Of a stretch of 64,000 bases of DNA, positions 5 to 11,342 are shown one piece after another. Numbering within the stretch: the first letter of the stretch is position 1; each line of letters opens with the position of its first letter. Origin of the DNA: a virus. Lineage: Duplodnaviria; Caudoviricetes. A program made the translations under genes and the position numbers. The stretch spans positions 63,633 through 127,632 of IMG/VR virus record IMGVR_UViG_2693430034_000001; one strand, written 5' to 3'. The notes beneath the pieces are model-generated. The model ran no database searches. It was not told where the DNA came from and was given only the letters and a program-made list of their open reading frames with translations.

Positions 5-373
5 TTGAGATGGGGCGTCGAGACGGTCCTCAAGACGTTTCGCGACTCCGAGGCCGCCGGGTATCGCTCGCGCGATCGGCAGTATGCCATCGAGATCCTC
101 GCCAAGGCCGAGGAGCAGGCTGGCGCCCCGGGCGCGCTGCAGGGCCGCGACGACACCCTGCGAGGGCTTGCGGCATTCTTCAGCGAGTCGCCGCATACGG
201 TCTGGTCGAACGACGAGATTGCCGACTGCCTGACCAGCATGATCACCCCGCCCGCGGACGAACCGGTCAAGGTCACGCCGAGCTGCGGCTGCATCTTCTG
301 CGACTTGGACCTGGAGGCCGTCGATGGCATTCACGACGGACCGGCCGGCGAGAGAATTGAATGTAGCGCGTAG
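5..373 (+). CDS. hypothetical phage protein (probably 5'-truncated by window edge)
   Basis: 122-aa ORF with phage-like codon use and a C-terminal CGCIFC motif. The stop codon lies inside repeat copy 1. Confidence 0.6.
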   Translation: MRWGVETVLKTFRDSEAAGYRSRDRQYAIEILAKAEEQAGAPGALQGRDDTLRGLAAFFSESPHTVWSNDEIADCLTSMITPPADEPVKVTPSCGCIFCDLDLEAVDGIHDGPAGERIECSA

Positions 374-578
374 CGCTCGCTACCGGCGGCGGCATCGAGG
401 GGGGCGGTCGGCAGACCGGCGGTCGTAATAGCGGACCGTGACAGGGGCACTCGCTTTCGAACCCTGCCTCCCTCCATGCTGCCGTGATCTTGAAAGAAGC
501 GCGTAGCGCTCGCTACCTACGGTTATGGTCGACAACTTGTTCGCCGCGTTGTATCTAATCTAAAACTGGGGGTGAACG

Positions 579-1076
579 ATGAGACGATCCGGAGTTGCGA
601 TTATTGCTTGCCTGATGCTGATCCATCCGGCCGCCGCGCAACAGGCGACCAAGTTCAAAGGGTTCTTCATCGGCATGAGCAAGAAGGATGCGATCAGCCT
701 CATGCCCCAAGGCTATCGCCTGAAGCAGGGACCGGCAGCCATCGGATTCGTTCCTCCAAACGCCATGATGGATCTGGCAAGCGCGATGTTCGACCTGGAT
801 CCGGACGGCACGGTAACGCAGATCTATCTGAACAAGAGCATCTTTGGTGCTGAAGAGATGCCGGGCGACCAGTTCATGAAGGCCATCGTCTCGAACTATG
901 GGGTGGGAGAAGTGTCGTGCGAGACGAAGCACACCGAGTACGAGCGGCTCAACGGTGTGCCCAAATACATCACCTCAACCGAATGCACCGGCTATTCCAA
1001 GAACGGTGAGCTGGTCCAGCTGACCGAGTCCAGGATCAAGGTAACGAAGCCGCGTCAGAAGCCTTCGTTCAATTGA
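579..1076 (+). CDS. secreted/periplasmic hypothetical protein
   Basis: N-terminal signal peptide (MRRSGVAIIACLMLIHPAAA), RBS-like GGGGG upstream, lies between repeat copies 2 and 3. Confidence 0.75.
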   Translation: MRRSGVAIIACLMLIHPAAAQQATKFKGFFIGMSKKDAISLMPQGYRLKQGPAAIGFVPPNAMMDLASAMFDLDPDGTVTQIYLNKSIFGAEEMPGDQFMKAIVSNYGVGEVSCETKHTEYERLNGVPKYITSTECTGYSKNGELVQLTESRIKVTKPRQKPSFN

Positions 1077-1124
1077 GCCGGTCACGCGCGGCGCCGATCG
1101 ATATCCTTCAGCGCGGAGCGCTCG

Positions 1125-1328
1125 CTACCCATGCCCGTCTCGGCGTTCCTCGTCGCGGCGCGCGAGCCAGGACAAGCTGTCCGCGAGGTCGTCCGCATCT
1201 TCTGCGCTGAGCCCGGTGAGGGTAACGGTGTCTTGGCACGCCACCAGGCCGGTCAGCACGTCGATGACTGACCAGCCGAATGTGTCCCGGCGAATGGTAT
1301 AGCGGGCGTACTTGGGCTTATGCGCCAT
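1125..1328 (-). CDS. small hypothetical protein
   Basis: 67-aa ORF (RYTIRRDTFGWSVIDV...DADDLADSL) between repeat copies 3 and 4. Its stop codon is supplied by the repeat. Confidence 0.6.
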   Translation of the reverse strand: MAHKPKYARYTIRRDTFGWSVIDVLTGLVACQDTVTLTGLSAEDADDLADSLSWLARRDEERRDGHG

Positions 1329-1712
1329 CGCGTCATTCTACACTAGCGCGGAGCGCTCGCCACACTCGGCCTCGACCTCATCCGGTAAATGGCCTTTTAG
1401 GCGCGGCGCCGCTCGGGATGACCTCCCGAATGGGGTGGGGTCTTTTCGAAGGCCACCCCCGTTTGCATTTTCCAGGGCTTAGGAAGGCCATGGAGAGGCT
1501 TGCCGACCAGCCGGTACTGACCCAGCGGCCAGGGTGTTTTGGAGGGCCGCCCGTGCTCCGCTGCTCCTGGAGGGTGACATCCAGTGATGGTCCTAAGGGG
1601 TTGGCGGAAAAGGGCCTTTTAGGGGTTCGAAGTTTGGATGAGCTGGCCGACCCAGTACCCATGTCAAGAAAAAAAATATTCTCCCAAAATTGAAACTTTG
1701 AAATGATATTCT

Positions 1713-1763
1713 TTGCTCGAATGCAAATTTTCGTTTGCATTCCTCATTGGCTTTCGGCATATT
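1713..1763 (+). promoter_or_regulatory. sigma70-like promoter overlapped by operator motif and inverted repeat
   Basis: TTGCAT (1735-1740), 17-bp spacer, CATATT (1758-1763). Motif TTGCTCGAATGCAAA at 1713-1727. GAATGCAAA/TTTGCATTC inverted repeat. Confidence 0.55.
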
Positions 1764-1769
1764 CAATCC

Positions 1770-2620
1770 ATCGAAACGACGTTGTTTCGGTCAAGTTGCA
1801 AAGCGGTCGGTTCCCTCTTGAACCTTCTGACTCTGCCCGGCGATGTGATGCCGAGTAGTTTGGACCTTTGAAACTTGCACATAGCAATTGCGGACCTTGT
1901 AGCGGTAGCAAGCAAATGCGTTCTAGGGCCTTGGGCCGATGCCGGACGGCGGAACGTGTAAGCAAGTGAGCGAAGGGGAAAAGCGGCGAACGTGTCATGT
2001 AGCAACCGGGCAACCGGCCAAGCCTTGATACCAAGCCAGCGGATTGCAGCCCTTCAATGGGCGGATGTGCAAGGGGATAGGTTACAGGCTTTCACCTAGA
2101 CGGTTGACGAAACCGGAAAATAGCATCGGAGAGTCCTATTCAGTTAGGTATACCGTTGCCTGCTAGATCGGAAATTATGCATTCGACCCTGTACGGAGTC
2201 GCGTGGCATTCCTTAAACTGCTTTGACCGGCTGGTTTAGGGAACGTTCACGCAATAGACTTTCCAGACGCTAACACGCGCGGGTTACCCTAGCGGTAACC
2301 TTGTGGCCTCCGAATGCATGGTTCAACCGGCTATCGTTTCCCGCTCTATTCGGCAATGGCATGCTTTGAGCGGTGCGATAGCGGCGGACAAACCAAGCCA
2401 GACAATAGCGCAATGATATAGGCGGAACGGCGGAACGCGGGCGATTTATCGCGGCGTTTTCTGTTTCGTCCGGACCATTGCGAACTAGGCCCGGCAAAGT
2501 CCCGTCTTAGCAAAATTTCAACGTCAAACACCAAGCGACTCCGAGTGCATTTCAACGTGCGCTCGGAGTCTGCCTGCTATCCGGCAAGCGCATTCGACTT
2601 GCCCTTACCCGATAGCAGCA
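1770..2620 (+). ncRNA. candidate large structured non-coding RNA (~850 nt)
   Basis: No credible ORF. More than 10 helices including long-range pairings, many G-U pairs consistent with a + strand RNA, a GNRA loop and an upstream promoter. Confidence 0.65.
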
Positions 2621-2665
2621 CAGCATGACTATCGATCACCCCCACTCCCAATGGAGACTCGAACT

Positions 2666-3271
2666 ATGTCTGTCACCAACACTGTCAAGACTACCGCTCC
2701 CGCCGTCATCAAGCTCATTGAAGGCGAGAAGGCGATTACCAAGGCCCTTGAGTCAATCAAGGCCCGCGGTGCATCGCTCCAGCGCGATATCCACACCGCG
2801 GCGTGCTCCGTGCTGTCGCATGTCGGCAAGCATAAGGACGTCCGGCTTGTGACCAAGCTGCTCGAGTCCATGCCTGACATGTCGCGCAAGAATGCGCTCA
2901 AGGCGTGGTTCGAACACCACGGCCCGGTCGCCTTCTCCGAGAAGGGCGAAATCAAGTATGCGCCCGAAAACCGGATGCTGCTCGGCAACGCTATGGCCAA
3001 GCCGTTCTGGGCCTTCAAGCCGGAGGCCGCCTATGTCCCGATGGACGTGTCCGCCAGCTTCGACTCCTTCATCAAAAAGCTGGAGAAGGATCACAAGGAA
3101 ACCGGCCGCGACCATACCGCGCTGGTGTCCCAGCTCCTGAAGCTGCGCCCGGATACCGACGAAACCGCCAAGCGCGACAGCCAGAACGAAAAGGTCGCCA
3201 AGGCACCCAAGGCGCCCAAGGTCACCGCCCCGGCGCCCGTGGAAGCTCCGAAGGTCGCCGTCGCCGCCTAA
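2666..3271 (+). CDS. conserved early phage protein
   Basis: GGAG RBS and strong codon bias. Resembles early phage proteins of the ..RGAxLxxDIHxAA..SRKNALxAWF type. Ends in VAVAA. Confidence 0.85.
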   Translation: MSVTNTVKTTAPAVIKLIEGEKAITKALESIKARGASLQRDIHTAACSVLSHVGKHKDVRLVTKLLESMPDMSRKNALKAWFEHHGPVAFSEKGEIKYAPENRMLLGNAMAKPFWAFKPEAAYVPMDVSASFDSFIKKLEKDHKETGRDHTALVSQLLKLRPDTDETAKRDSQNEKVAKAPKAPKVTAPAPVEAPKVAVAA

Positions 3272-3274
3272 CGG

Positions 3275-3323
3275 ACGGTTTGCGCCCTCTCCCGATCGCA
3301 AGGTCGGGGGAGTGGCAAGCCGT
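3275..3323 (+). other. long intergenic hairpin with GCAA tetraloop (possible RNase III/processing site)
   Basis: ACGGTTTGC..CTCTCCCGATC-GCAA-GGTCGGGGGAG..GCAAGCCGT, with no U-tract. Confidence 0.5.
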
Positions 3324-3367
3324 ACCCTTCAAACGAGACCGACTCTCCCAACGCCAGAGGTGCGCCC

Positions 3368-3787
3368 ATGCGTGTCTACCTGCAAACCCAGAATGCCCAT
3401 GGCTCTTGGGTGACCCTGCTCGACGGGTCTGCCCTGTGTGCCCGCCCCGCCCGTGGTCTGCGCGGCAAGTCCCACCTGGCCAACCGTACCCCCAAGGCAT
3501 CGGGTGGCAATCGCGTCGAGTATGAGCTGACCCTTGCCCTGTTCGACCACCTCGAAGCGTCGCCCGCGAACGCCCGGCTGATTGATTGCGACACCAGCCG
3601 CGTCGTCGCCAGCAAGATGACCGTCGATCGCGACCGTCACCGCTTCAAGTATCCGGCCACGCCAGAGATCCGCCGCGCGCCCCGTCCCGTGGTCCGTAAG
3701 TGCGACGTCGGCATCATGCCCCGCATCGCCAAGTGGAAGCGCACCGGCCATCTCCAGAGCTGGTACGCCGGCATCGTGATGCGCTGA
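3368..3787 (+). CDS. hypothetical protein
   Basis: ORF with GAGG RBS. Confidence 0.7.
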   Translation: MRVYLQTQNAHGSWVTLLDGSALCARPARGLRGKSHLANRTPKASGGNRVEYELTLALFDHLEASPANARLIDCDTSRVVASKMTVDRDRHRFKYPATPEIRRAPRPVVRKCDVGIMPRIAKWKRTGHLQSWYAGIVMR

Positions 3788-3877: not shown

Positions 3878-4078
3878 ATGGTGACCATCCGAGAAGCCCG
3901 TCAGCGTCTGTTGGTGTCAGGCATGCGTCTGTCCCGCCGCGATGCCGAGTTCCGCGTGGCCTTCGCCGAGTTGCCGTACCCAAAGGCTGAGAAGTCCGCC
4001 TACTACACCGACGATATCGAGGACGCCATGCTTACCGGAGCCATGATGCGCCGGAAGTGTGTCCGGCCGCTTGCTTGA
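3878..4078 (+). CDS. hypothetical protein
   Basis: Small ORF with AAGG RBS and an EFRV...YYTDDIEDA motif. Confidence 0.65.
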   Translation: MVTIREARQRLLVSGMRLSRRDAEFRVAFAELPYPKAEKSAYYTDDIEDAMLTGAMMRRKCVRPLA

Positions 4079-4231: not shown

Positions 4232-5170
4232 TTCAGAGCCCAAAATCGGGTCTAGACCCGTGTTTTTGAACACCAAAGTACCGTTTTAGCCTCCGTAGGC
4301 CCCACATCTAGTGTTTTTGGGGTCTAACTGGCGCAATTAATTGCCCGCCTTTTATGGGAAGCGAAAGATCGACTCGACGGACTTCTGGCCTTTTGAGTTA
4401 CATCTGACCCGTAGTTCGCCTGTATGCGTCAGATCTGGTGCATTGATAGGTGCCGTTTGCATCTGGTCACAGACCACGCCAGCTGACCGGCTTGTCTCTC
4501 CTGTCCTTACTGCTCCTCCTCTCGTATCTCAGTCTTGAGGTGGTGCATGTTCGGCGGCCGGCGATTCCGGGGCGGCTGCGTTTCGTCTGGTTTTCATGGG
4601 GTTTTCGATCTCATGGGCGCCGGCTGATGCCGCTGCTACCCTGACCGGCTGAGCTGATCCGGAACCGTGTCCGGGTGTCTCCAACCAGTCCCGACCAGTG
4701 CCTTCTGCTGGTCGATGCTGCCCTAGTCCTGGCTCTGTCCGCTCCCCCTGTCTTGATGACCATGGGGGTGGTGTGCCTGGTCCGGGCGGCCTCCGAAAAA
4801 TCCCCTCGGCCGGTCCGATAATTCGTCGGCGGCCCATTTTCCGGGGAATTAATTTCGAATTTCGGAGGGCTGATCGAGGCCCTTCCGACCCCCGATTTAT
4901 CTCACACGAACGTGGCGATGTTAGGGCCAATTTGCTCTTGCATTTCCGCTTGCAGTGATGCAAATAGCGAAAACAAACGAGGCAATCGACGATGAATATG
5001 CGCCCCACCCTGACCGTTGTGATGCTCGACGGCACCGTTGAGAGAGTCCGCATGCGGTCCCTCCGGATCGCCCGACACGCCGCTTTCCTCATGAACGAAG
5101 GCGGGCGCTACCGCGCCGCGTTTGCCCGAATGATGCCGGTGGTCCCTCTCGGCTGGCAGGCGGTCTGACC

Positions 5171-6844: not shown

Positions 6845-6912
6845 TTCGTCCCCCGCCGTGTAGCGCCTGCCTTGCGTGATACGGCACGCCGCACATGCGG
6901 ACACGGTGGGGG
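6845..6912 (+). ncRNA. structured RNA motif, copy 1
   Basis: Closing stem CCCCCGCCGTG/CACGGTGGGGG enclosing GCGTG-ATACGG-CACGC and CGCA-CA-TGCG hairpins. Confidence 0.6.
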
Positions 6913-7064
6913 TCGTCACTAAATTCAACTGCCACGGAGAAAGACAATGAAGTAAGCGACCCCGCCTAGATGACACAGCACGGACGACCTTTATGACCGG
7001 AGCAGCCGGGAGCGACCGGACCCAATGCACGACCAGCGGCGTGCCAACCAATCCGCTGGAGCTA

Positions 7065-7137
7065 TTCGTCCCTCACCGTGACTGCCTGCCTTGCGTCATA
7101 CGGGACGCCGCATTTGCGGACACGGTGAGGGATTGAA
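7065..7137 (+). ncRNA. structured RNA motif, copy 2
   Basis: Closing stem CCCTCACCGTG/CACGGTGAGGG enclosing GCGTC-ATACGG-GACGC and CGCA-TT-TGCG. Compensatory changes relative to copy 1. Confidence 0.6.
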
Positions 7138-11267: not shown

Positions 11268-11342
11268 GCTCCCGTCGTCTATCGGCTAGGACGCCGCCTT
11301 CTCAAGGCGGAAAGGTTGGTTCGATTCCAGCCGGGAGCGCCA
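11268..11342 (+). tRNA. tRNA-Glu (anticodon CTC)
   Basis: Acceptor stem GCTCCCG/CGGGAGC, anticodon arm CCGCC-TTCTCAA-GGCGG, T-loop GTTCGATTC, encoded CCA. Confidence 0.93.

What the first reader, a model, noticed from the sequence alone, without database searches (positions are those of the whole stretch)
1770..2620. Candidate novel ~850-nt highly structured ncRNA at the head of the early operon
Seen: no credible ORF, a sigma70-like promoter just upstream, and nested helices throughout. Helices: 1792-1803/1866-1877; long-range closing helices 1923-1929/2504-2510 and 1940-1945/2491-2496; CCGG-GCAA-CCGG (2006-2017); 2177-2185/2311-2319 enclosing 2209-2218/2234-2243 and 2282-2288/2294-2300; 2330-2336/2376-2382; 2409-2415/2476-2482 enclosing a 17-bp helix (2421-2438/2454-2470) with five G-U pairs and no A-C; 2537-2549/2558-2570; 2575-2581/2611-2617. 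ACCAAGC and GGCGGAACG recur. The G-U bias indicates selection on a + strand RNA. I see no hallmarks of RNase P, tmRNA or group II introns. Established: phages encode large ncRNAs of unknown function (GOLLD, ROOL) and RNA antiterminators (HK022 put). Inference: a new large RNA class, or a processive antitermination leader for the ~28-kb early operon, controlled by the repeated operator.
Basis: partly seen in the sequence, partly recalled or inferred. Interest (0 to 1): 0.9.

Follow-up and report, generated by a model that had tools for sequence, protein, structure and literature searches.

The report
Large structured leader RNA of prophage
The flagged stretch is a real, intricately folded non-coding RNA of about 700-900 bases that heads the early genes of a Bradyrhizobium prophage and matches no catalogued RNA family; what it does is still untested.

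Summary
Window 1770-2620 has no conserved ORF and matches no Rfam family, also in its relatives. It folds better than shuffles, more so on the + strand.

The same ORF-free stretch precedes the same first gene (phrog_1448, unknown function) in three other complete loci and two metagenome fragments. These are only 48-78% identical to the window.

Across them, 11 helices (78 base pairs) are kept: 364 of 379 cells pair, 37 pairs show compensatory changes, and there are 34 G-U against 1 A-C. This indicates a + strand RNA. On an unfitted MAFFT alignment, 0 of 500 shuffles reach the observed covariation.

Its two long-range closing helices and its sigma-70 promoter are not.

In the four complete loci the RNA ends 37-47 nt before the start codon, with no terminator between. 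I therefore read it as a cis-acting structured 5' leader of a new family. Antitermination, processing or a trans role remain inference.

The "repeated operator" is real: 20 copies, 19 on the + strand.

This scan has noted structured leaders at the head of phage early operons before, on other DNA.

The parts
1387..1465 (+). Conserved non-coding block upstream of the leader. It holds a near-palindrome AAATGGCCTTTTAGG and a terminator-like hairpin (GGGGTGG...CCACCCC followed by a T-rich tail). Probably the end of the upstream unit.
   Evidence: blastn 83% over 83 nt to L137, 77% to L135, 84% to L131. Terminator-like sites at 1421-1440. GGCCTTTTAGG occurs at 1391 and 1613 only.
1605..1712 (+). Conserved block A: a second GGCCTTTTAGG, AAGTTTGGA, CCATGTCAA-A8 and GAAACTTTGAAAT. 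Presumed promoter or control region of the leader; no promoter was identified.
   Evidence: nhmmer and MAFFT alignments with L135, L137 and L131. No sigma-70 consensus site in the scan.
1715..1742 (.). Operator-like site: first copy of the repeated 13-mer (GCTCGAATGCAAA, 1715-1727). Its core GAATGCAAA (1719-1727) is repeated inverted as TTTGCATTC (1734-1742) after 6 nt.
   Evidence: Sequence. Motif statistics, contexts. The same arrangement is in L131.
1772..1894 (+). Lineage-specific 5' part of the leader. In L135-L137 it is replaced by about 400-500 nt more of unrelated sequence.
   Evidence: Alignment.
1895..2046 (+). Variable 5' domain. It holds helix P0 (1917-1923/1952-1958) and a GNRA (GCAA) hairpin at 2006-2017.
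   Evidence: P0: 26 of 28 cells paired, 2 covarying pairs. GCAA loop on different stems in the window, L131 and L137.
2047..2172 (+). Most conserved core. H1 2049-2052/2059-2062 (loop UUCAAU). H2 2101-2105/2111-2115 (loop GACGA). H3 2123-2129/2153-2159, enclosing the invariant hairpin H4 2135-2138/2145-2148 (CCUA-UUCAGU-UAGG). Then CUGCUAGAUCGG.
   Evidence: 88% identity to L002 over 92 nt against 63% amino-acid identity of the neighbouring gene. Covariation. Model R1 built on 2095-2197.
2173..2323 (+). Long-range helix H5: 2173-2185 with 2311-2323 (13 bp, possibly extended by 2169-2171/2327-2329). It encloses a variable insert that starts with the conserved ACCCUGUACGG and ends with the invariant GGCCUC.
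   Evidence: 65 of 65 cells paired, 8 of 13 pairs with changes on both sides. Insert length 82-169 nt in the homologues.
2324..2382 (+). Hairpin domain H6: outer stem 2330-2337/2375-2382, middle stem 2341-2346/2368-2373, inner stem 2352-2355/2362-2365. Conserved loops UAUUC and AUGGCA.
   Evidence: Outer stem: 40 of 40 cells paired, 7 of 8 pairs covary. Independent MFE folds of all 5 sequences give the same hairpin.
2383..2506 (+). Long irregular hairpin H7. Closing helix 2383-2387/2502-2506. Conserved AUAGC ... GAACUAG. Inner helices 2409-2415/2476-2482 and 2421-2438/2454-2470. The apex hairpin is followed by a short U-rich strand (weakly terminator-like).
   Evidence: Closing helix: 25 of 25 cells paired, 2 covarying pairs. 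Domain folds. Terminator-like hit at 2436-2453.
2507..2536 (+). Unpaired A/C-rich, G-poor linker (UAGCAAAA...).
   Evidence: Predicted unpaired (MFE 0.0) when the segment (window 2508-2536) is folded alone, in all 5 sequences.
2537..2570 (+). GC-rich hairpin E (14 bp in the window). It is followed by the conserved UCUGYCUG and has no U tract.
   Evidence: 55 of 55 cells paired over 11 bp, 2 covarying pairs, wobbles only as G-U.
2571..2618 (+). 3' domain F: outer helix 2574-2581/2611-2618 around a small hairpin. The 3' arm could also pair with the look-alike segment 2160-2171.
   Evidence: 39 of 40 cells paired, 4 covarying pairs. The alternative pairing has no covariation support.
2619..2665 (+). 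Short spacer with the Shine-Dalgarno GGAG (2653-2656). No terminator and no conserved structure over the ribosome-binding site.
   Evidence: Sequence. The spacer is 47, 45, 37 and 40 nt in the window, L136, L137 and L135.
2666..3271 (+). First gene of the unit: a 201-aa protein of family phrog_1448, function unknown.
   Evidence: phrog_1448 at E 4.3e-46 and no Pfam family. AlphaFold2 model with pLDDT 80.8, and no PDB fold match at E<=0.001.

Best explanation
The stretch is the long, highly structured 5' leader of the first rightward (early/replication) transcription unit of a temperate Bradyrhizobium phage. It belongs to a new RNA family.

Shown:
- A + strand RNA fold of at least 11 helices: a variable 5' domain, a conserved multi-helix core closed by a 13-bp long-range helix, two hairpin domains, an unpaired A/C-rich linker, a GC-rich hairpin and a 3' domain.
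- This fold is maintained by compensatory changes in five lineages.
- It always ends 37-47 nt before the start codon of the same gene, with no terminator between.

Inferred:
- It is transcribed from an operator-controlled promoter near 1700-1745 and stays attached to the early mRNA.
- It acts in cis on that transcript. My committed guess is that the conserved core binds a partner (RNA polymerase, Rho/Nus-type factors or an RNase) and thereby sets how far and how stably early transcription proceeds after induction.
- I put about 0.85 on 'real structured + strand RNA', about 0.65 on 'leader of the mRNA', and about 0.3 on elongation or antitermination control specifically.
For: Homology:
- The upstream region is homologous in L002/L136, L003/L137 and L005/L135 (nhmmer E 6e-56, 6.8e-26 and 4.4e-24).
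- It is also homologous in the metagenome fragments L133 and L131 (E 3.8e-108 and 1.9e-93).
- Conserved islands are separated by length-variable parts.

Covariation:
- Curated helices: 364 of 379 cells canonical, 37 of 78 pairs changed on both sides, 34 G-U against 1 A-C. Partners slid by 1-3 give 33-41% paired and 4-13 such pairs.
- On the unfitted MAFFT alignment A2: 59 pairs, 92.1% paired, 22 pairs changed on both sides, 0 of 500 shuffles as high. Slid partners give 33-39% and 3-7.
- Independent MFE folds of each homologue give the same domains.

Folding: + strand z is -2.7 to -4.7 and always lower than the - strand z.

Not coding: no conserved ORF.

Link to the gene: a constant short spacer to the start codon, with no terminator-like site between 2453 and 3500.
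Against: - No transcript data: no RNA run was listed. Start, end, processing and abundance are therefore unknown.
- No promoter was identified.
- There are only five lineages, two of them fragments. The helix registers were chosen by hand.
- Nothing in the fold points to a specific mechanism. The ribosome-binding site is not sequestered, and hairpin E has no U tract.
- The array downstream shows only weak + strand terminator-like sites (9 of the 25 found on both strands, against 14.9 +/- 4.2 expected). A need for antitermination is therefore not evident.
- The level of conservation in loops and junctions is higher than a mere stabilising leader would need.
Confidence: 0.55

Rival explanations
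1. A stable, stand-alone large ornate RNA. It would be cut out of the early transcript, for instance by RNase III or RNase E at the long H7 or E helices, and would act in trans as a scaffold, cage or decoy, as proposed for GOLLD and ROOL.
For: - Size and complexity: about 700 nt of core, at least 11 helices, a GNRA loop, invariant loops and junctions.
- A variable 5' and a conserved 3' part. GOLLD is described the same way in passages of PMC12286853.
- It is phage-encoded.
- The ribosome-binding site of the next gene is not touched by the fold.
Against: - No terminator or own 3' end. It is always 37-47 nt from the start codon.
- No match to any Rfam model.
- It is not next to a tRNA island: the only tRNA in the window lies 8.6 kb downstream.
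- It is very rare: only the genome itself and one other of 151 genus genomes searched with model R1.
Confidence: 0.27
2. A sensor-type leader (riboswitch-like or protein-responsive attenuator). The conserved core would bind a ligand or factor and decide whether the apex hairpin of H7 with its U-rich tail, or the competing pairings of 2608-2618 with 2160-2171 or 2574-2584, form. That would stop or pass transcription.
For: - Terminator-like hairpin at 2436-2453 with a T-rich tail. L135 has a clearer CCGCG...CGCGG followed by UUUUU at the same place.
- Two look-alike segments could pair with the same 3' arm.
- Near-invariant unpaired nucleotides in the core.
Against: - U tracts are short in the other loci: I count 2-4 U's in the sequences.
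- The apex sits inside a long helix in every MFE fold.
- The alternative long-range pairing has no covariation and breaks in L137.
- No known riboswitch model matches.
Confidence: 0.1
3. A DNA-level element: an origin of replication, a packaging site or a cluster of protein-binding sites, not an RNA.
For: - Lower G+C than the flanks (0.51-0.58 against 0.60-0.69).
- Operator-like inverted repeats at its 5' edge.
- In the two cultured relatives of the phrog_1448 gene that I inspected, the gene follows a 1.1-1.6 kb ORF-poor stretch near a genome end.
Against: - Arms of the helices change sequence while keeping complementarity. Protein-binding repeats keep sequence instead.
- 34 G-U against 1 A-C cells means the - strand could not form these helices.
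- No iterons or tandem repeats were seen inside 1895-2620 in the repeat search.
Confidence: 0.05
4. Chance hairpins in a decaying or fast-evolving spacer, or a set of unrecognised small genes.
For: Any GC-rich 850-nt stretch folds extensively. Short open frames exist.
Against: - 0 of 500 shuffles reach the observed covariation.
- Blocks are more conserved than the neighbouring gene.
- Open frames are not shared between the homologues.
Confidence: 0.02

Closest known systems
HK022 putL/putR RNAs (cis-acting processive antiterminator RNAs)
   Same: A phage-encoded structured RNA downstream of an early promoter, at the head of long early transcription units, needing no dedicated protein (passages of PMC9378689).
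   Different: put RNAs are about 70 nt with two stem-loops and bind the beta' zinc-binding domain. This RNA has about 700 nt of conserved fold and at least 11 helices. No sequence relation was seen, and no read-through activity or terminators to be read through are shown.
GOLLD and ROOL large ornate RNAs of phages and prophages
   Same: Phage-encoded, more than 600 nt, elaborate covarying secondary structure, function unknown. [quoted passage not shown]
   Different: No match to any Rfam model, even at E<=10. I recall, but did not check in a call, that Rfam holds models of both. It is not beside a tRNA island. It is fused to the 5' end of a protein-coding gene with no end of its own. The host is an alphaproteobacterium. 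It is very rare in the collections searched.
Early-transcript leaders with RNase III sites (T7 R0.3; lambda N leader with nutL).
   Same: An untranslated structured stretch between the early promoter(s) and the first early gene. phrog_1448 homologues are among the first genes of T7-like Autographiviridae and follow ORF-poor stretches there.
   Different: Those leaders are shorter, with one or two functional hairpins. Here a multi-domain fold with a long-range helix and invariant junctions is conserved. No boxA/boxB-like conserved sequence was found: the boxA-like CGCUCU lies in a covarying stem.
Structured early-operon leaders noted earlier in this scan (e1-6021716, e1-136744, e1-5989255)
   Same: Uncatalogued, covarying, untranslated RNAs of about 400-540 nt at the head of phage early operons (AI notes).
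   Different: Different genomes and, as far as the notes tell, unrelated sequences. This one is larger. I did not test those notes.
Stoperators of cluster A mycobacteriophages (for the repeated 13-mer, not for the RNA)
   Same: An asymmetric site of about 13 bp, spread in many copies over the genome, in one orientation, in short intergenic spaces (abstract of PMC9283540; window data).
   Different: No repressor was identified here and binding is untested. The motif could instead be a promoter or an RNA hairpin (UUUGC-UUGAAU-GCAAA).

Membership tests
Any Rfam 15 family (which I recall to include GOLLD, ROOL, OLE, HEARO, group I and II introns, RNase P, tmRNA, C4/CI antisense RNA and riboswitches) | Match to the family's covariance model | tested here: not met
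   Whole window at gathering threshold: only a tRNA. 1300-2800 at E<=10: four miRNA chance rows, all far below gathering score. Five homologous loci at E<=1: one chance row outside the element.
GOLLD / ROOL | Encoded in phages or prophages, often beside tRNA islands | tested here: inconclusive
   The prophage context is met: rIIA-like gene, helicases, RNR and integrase in the window. The tRNA neighbourhood is not: the single tRNA is at 11268-11342, 8.6 kb away.
GOLLD / ROOL | RNA-only homo-oligomeric cage | not testable with these tools
   Needs in-vitro transcription and cryo-EM or SEC-MALS.
HK022 put RNA | About 70 nt, two stem-loops, just downstream of the early promoter | tested here: not met
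   The conserved fold spans 1917-2618 with at least 11 helices. The put features are from passages of PMC9378689. The promoter position is unknown.
HK022 put RNA | Makes RNA polymerase read through terminators far downstream | not testable with these tools
   Only weak + strand terminator-like sites lie downstream. This needs reporter assays.
Structured 5' leader (5' UTR) of an mRNA | Same strand as the gene, contiguous with it, with no terminator or promoter between | tested here: met
   Spacer of 37-47 nt in four loci. No terminator-like or promoter-like site between 2453 and 3500. A transcript has not been observed.
Structured RNA in general | Base pairs kept by compensatory change, beyond controls | tested here: met
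   (numbers are given in the report).
Stoperator-type repressor sites (for the 13-mer) | Many asymmetric copies, one orientation relative to transcription, in intergenic spaces | tested here: met
   20 hits with up to 2 mismatches, 19 on +, against 1.35 expected. Most copies lie in spaces between + strand genes, within about 10-40 nt of a ribosome-binding site.
Stoperator-type repressor sites (for the 13-mer) | Bound by the immunity repressor, blocking elongation | not testable with these tools
   No repressor gene was identified here.

The most novel reading that the evidence does not exclude
This is a new class of large ornate phage RNA, not merely an mRNA leader. The riboswitch- or ribozyme-grade conserved core (H1-H6 with invariant loops and a GNRA hairpin) would bind a cellular machine or ligand. 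Candidates are RNA polymerase acting as a giant put-like antiterminator, Rho, a ribonuclease, or copies of itself. In that way it would programme the switch from prophage silence, enforced at stoperator-like sites, to full early transcription.
Probability: 0.25. Interest if true: 0.85.

Novelty: new variant of a known kind. Interest (0 to 1): 0.62.

Why it matters
Covariation-supported bacterial or phage RNAs of more than 500 nt are few, and most have no known function. This one has an unusually clear fold for so few sequences. It has a fixed genetic position, directly ahead of the first early gene and behind an operator-like repeat.

Two named or nameable hosts can be grown: the window's Bradyrhizobium and B. 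hipponense aSej3. Deletion, reporter and probing experiments are therefore straightforward.

Earlier notes of this scan, which I did not check, report uncatalogued structured leaders at the head of early operons in unrelated phages. Together with those, this suggests that RNA-level control of early transcription may be more common and more elaborate than the lambda/HK022/T7 paradigms.

The stoperator-like motif, if bound by a repressor, would extend a mycobacteriophage-type silencing scheme to an alphaproteobacterial phage.

Tried and rejected
- RNA-seq evidence: no RNA holder was listed.
DNA around the closest protein homologues P0001-P0014 could not be fetched. These include hits named Bradyrhizobium denitrificans, sp. 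SZCCHNS3053 and sp. DASA03007. More copies of the RNA probably exist there.
- DNA search in phages: no match.
- DNA search in 61 relatives: only the window's own genome.
- Protein searches:
  - Genus: 8 of 401 genomes at E<=1e-5.
  - Family: 2 of 401 at E<=1e-10.
  - A repeat with n=333 drew the same genomes and added nothing.
- Genome-contig scan with the protein: no relative.
- Motif scans:
  - The longer pattern gave L021, a coding-region chance match.
  - GCAATGSCAWGCTTTGRG gave seven new loci. None shows homology beyond the motif, and the two I inspected lie in coding DNA.
- Distant phrog_1448 loci (L138-L150, L006-L011, L152-L154):
  - No hit with the core HMM, with conserved motifs or with model R1 (one row at E 0.61).
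  - Upstream z-scores are mixed: -0.7 to -10.9 with 12 shuffles.
  - L147 appears to contain small SD-led ORFs, by my reading of the sequence.
  - G135 has another gene order.
  - I draw no conclusion on a general 'phrog_1448 leader'.
- T7-type RNA polymerase (PF00940): not found in the genome, but the control genomes did not ring either. This is no evidence.
- phrog_1448 fold: no PDB match.
- Trans pairing of the leader's loops with the 13-mer: considered from the sequences. Rejected because the H1 loop is UUCAAU in the window and L137, but UUGAAU in L136, UUAAGU in L135 and UUCACU in L131.
- boxA: the look-alike CGCUCUAUUC lies in a covarying stem and is not conserved.
- Literature: searches (listings only) found nothing on this RNA. 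I claim no more than that.
- Supplementary files of papers were not opened.
Full report
**What is there**

The window is the last 64 kb of an 8.34-Mb single-contig genome. B. hipponense carries the closest genomic relative of the element.

Positions 1700-2650 have a lower G+C (0.51-0.58) than the flanks (0.60-0.69). They hold no ORF with a start codon longer than 52 aa on the + strand or 96 aa on the - strand.

The first gene downstream (2666-3271) belongs to phrog_1448, of unknown function, and has no Pfam family. An AlphaFold2 model of it (pLDDT 80.8) has no PDB fold match at E<=0.001.

Further downstream, all on the + strand, lie an rIIA-like gene, two helicases/primases, a RecE-like exonuclease, a ribonucleotide reductase and an integrase. 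The setting is therefore a temperate phage.

Sequences upstream of the element are also shared with a relative: a hairpin repeat and a conserved block at 1387-1465. The element thus lies inside the phage genome, at the start of a rightward gene array, not at its end.

**Is it known?**

No Rfam family matches.
- The whole window at gathering scores gives only a tRNA.
- 1300-2800 at E<=10 gives four chance miRNA rows.
- Five homologous loci at E<=1 give one chance row outside the element.
- ARAGORN finds only tRNA-Glu at 11268-11342.
- Two literature searches (listings only) gave nothing on it.

**Relatives**

The gene's protein led to two viral contigs and one genus genome, G163.

nhmmer showed that the ORF-free region upstream is homologous in all three: E 6e-56, 6.8e-26 and 4.4e-24. 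One 92-nt block is 88% identical to L002, while the protein there is 63% identical.

A 21-nt pattern from that block gave these results:
- Metagenome contigs: four matching stretches, two of which are homologous fragments, L133 and L131. They differ from each other where they overlap.
- Genome contigs: one stretch, B. hipponense aSej3, with nhmmer scores identical to G163's locus.
- Viral contigs: the same three contigs plus one chance hit.

There are thus five lineages, four of them complete. They are 48-78% identical to the window over aligned columns.

The family is rare in what I could search:
- Model R1 (window 2095-2197) found it in 2 of 151 genus genomes, one being the window's own.
- It found it in none of 21 loci with more distant phrog_1448 genes.

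**Structure**

The alignment is a mosaic of conserved islands and length-variable inserts. RNAalifold on it predicted 107 pairs, 42 of them with compensatory change.

Folding each homologue's segments on their own gave the same domains.

I then fixed 11 helices by coordinates: P0, H1, H2, H3, H5, three stems of H6, the closing stem of H7, E and F. H4 is invariant and was left out.
- 364 of 379 cells form standard pairs (96%).
- 37 of 78 pairs change on both sides.
- There are 34 G-U cells against 1 A-C.
- With the 3' partner slid by 1-3 positions, 33-41% of cells pair, 4-13 pairs covary and A-C cells number 34-51.
- These registers were chosen by hand, which favours pairing.

As an independent count I used only helices that MAFFT aligned by itself (59 pairs on A2).
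- 92.1% of cells are paired.
- 22 pairs are changed on both sides.
- The covariation score is 0.373 against 0.160 +/- 0.021 in shuffles, with 0 of 500 shuffles as high on any of the five measures.
- Slid controls give 33-39% paired and 3-7 covarying pairs.

The clearest cases are two.
- H5 (2173-2185/2311-2323): four different arm sequences, 65 of 65 cells paired.
- The outer stem of H6 (2330-2337/2375-2382): five different arm sequences, 40 of 40 cells paired.

The excess of G-U over A-C means that the complementary strand could not form these helices. The molecule is therefore a + strand RNA.

MFE z-scores agree. They are -4.27 (+) against -2.47 (-) for 1770-2620, and -2.7 to -4.7 (+), always below the - strand, in four loci.

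- Confirmed: the GCAA hairpin, 2177-2185/2311-2319, 2330-2336/2376-2382, hairpin 2537-2570 and 2575-2581/2611-2617.
- Real but in variable regions: the helices inside 2186-2310 and the distal part of 2383-2506.
- Only in the closest relative: 1792-1803/1866-1877.
- Not supported: the two long-range closing helices. One of them also competes with the covarying closing stem of H7.
- Not found: a sigma-70 consensus promoter.
- Not conserved: the repeated words ACCAAGC and GGCGGAACG.

**Leader or free RNA?**

In the four complete loci the 3' domain F ends 47, 45, 37 and 40 nt before the start codon. Within 1000-3500, no terminator-like site lies 3' of the one at 2436-2453, and no promoter-like site was found.

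The gene must therefore be transcribed through the element, which makes it at least formally a 5' leader.

The ribosome-binding site (GGAG, 2653-2656) lies outside the conserved fold, so simple translational occlusion is unlikely. Hairpin E has no U tract.

A 30-nt A/C-rich unpaired linker precedes E in all five sequences.

The apex of H7 is weakly terminator-like and clearer in L135, but U tracts are short elsewhere.

Two look-alike segments (2160-2171 and 2574-2584) could pair with the same 3' arm. Only the local pairing covaries.

**Mechanism**

- Shown: a conserved fold on the + strand, physically coupled to the first early gene.
- Inferred: transcription from a controlled promoter near 1700-1745, and action in cis.
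- I commit to control of elongation or transcript fate by a partner bound to the conserved core, with low confidence in the specific variant.
- Processive antitermination, as for HK022 put (about 70 nt, two stem-loops; passages of PMC9378689), remains possible. It is not indicated: downstream + strand terminator-like sites are few and weak.
- A processed, stable ornate RNA in the manner of GOLLD or ROOL (passages of PMC12286853) is the main rival.

**The repeated 13-mer**

GCTTGAATGCAAA occurs 20 times with up to 2 mismatches, 19 of them on the + strand, against 1.35 expected. Most copies lie in spaces between + strand genes, within about 10-40 nt of a ribosome-binding site.

The first copy (1715-1727) forms, with 1734-1742, a perfect 9-bp inverted repeat at the 5' edge of the leader. 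L131 has the same arrangement, and related copies occur in L136.

Number, asymmetry, orientation and position resemble the stoperators of cluster A mycobacteriophages (abstract of PMC9283540). A phage-specific promoter or an RNA hairpin are alternatives. No T7-type polymerase gene was detected, but that search had no working control.

**Wider context**

phrog_1448 homologues are among the first genes of about 45-kb Autographiviridae: 500 phage records match, all below 60% identity.

In Rhizobium phage RHEph02 and Stappia phage SI01 the gene follows ORF-poor stretches of 1.1-1.6 kb.

I found no homology of those stretches to this RNA, and their folding z-scores are mixed. I do not claim a general rule.

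Earlier notes of this scan describe uncatalogued structured leaders at the head of early operons in other phages. They are unchecked AI notes and add context only.

**Verdict**

This is a real, new, large structured RNA family, best read as the cis-acting leader of a prophage early operon. Its function is open.

Noticed in passing
window 1715, 4073, 7329, 11868, 13733, 14329, 17823, 17913, 25478, 26312, 28491, 35201, 38009, 42719, 43419, 48477, 49033, 58082, 59553 (+) and 32562 (-): A 13-mer, GCTTGAATGCAAA (extended form TTTGCTTGAATGCAAA), occurs 20 times, 19 on the + strand, against 1.35 expected. Most copies lie in short spaces between + strand genes, just upstream of ribosome-binding sites. 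It is stoperator-like; a promoter or an RNA hairpin are alternatives.
   Followed up: partly
window 1387-1401 and 1609-1623: Two copies of a near-palindrome, AAA(T/G)GGCCTTTTAGG, lie 222 bp apart. Each sits in a non-coding block conserved in L135, L137 and L131. They may be protein-binding sites that bracket the control region of the leader.
   Followed up: partly
window 357-1369; L135 125-1816: The roughly 20-nt hairpin repeat AGCGCG(G/T)AGCGCTCGCTAC bounds small gene cassettes upstream. It also occurs several times upstream of the leader in the B. hipponense relative, so it belongs to the phage family.
   Followed up: partly
window 4247-4260 and 4270-5170: The best + strand terminator-like hairpin downstream (CGGGTCTAGACCCG followed by TGTTTTT) comes after the fourth small gene. 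A T-rich stretch follows with no convincing + strand ORF. The 'early operon' may be subdivided here.
   Followed up: no
L143 2800-3480; L147 2800-3480: The upstream regions of two distant phrog_1448 genes fold far better than shuffles (z -9.8 and -10.9 with 12 shuffles). L147 appears to hold small SD-led ORFs. There is no homology to this RNA.
   Followed up: partly
L006 (G135) 1980-2750, - strand: In another Bradyrhizobium genome, a homologue of the window's small gene 3878-4078 precedes the phrog_1448 gene. The ORF-free stretch further upstream is unrelated in sequence but folds well (z -3.8 for the whole stretch folded).
   Followed up: partly
L153 (Rhizobium phage RHEph02) 886-2043; L154 (Stappia phage SI01) 2077-3736: In cultured Autographiviridae the phrog_1448 gene is among the first genes. 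It follows ORF-poor stretches of 1.1-1.6 kb near the genome end.
   Followed up: partly
window 11268-11342: A phage-borne tRNA-Glu (anticodon CTC) lies within the + strand gene array.
   Followed up: no
window 6845-7137: A duplicated element of about 48 nt (6865-6912 and 7084-7131, 90% identical) appeared in the repeat search. Another first-reader note describes it as a covarying three-helix motif.
   Followed up: no
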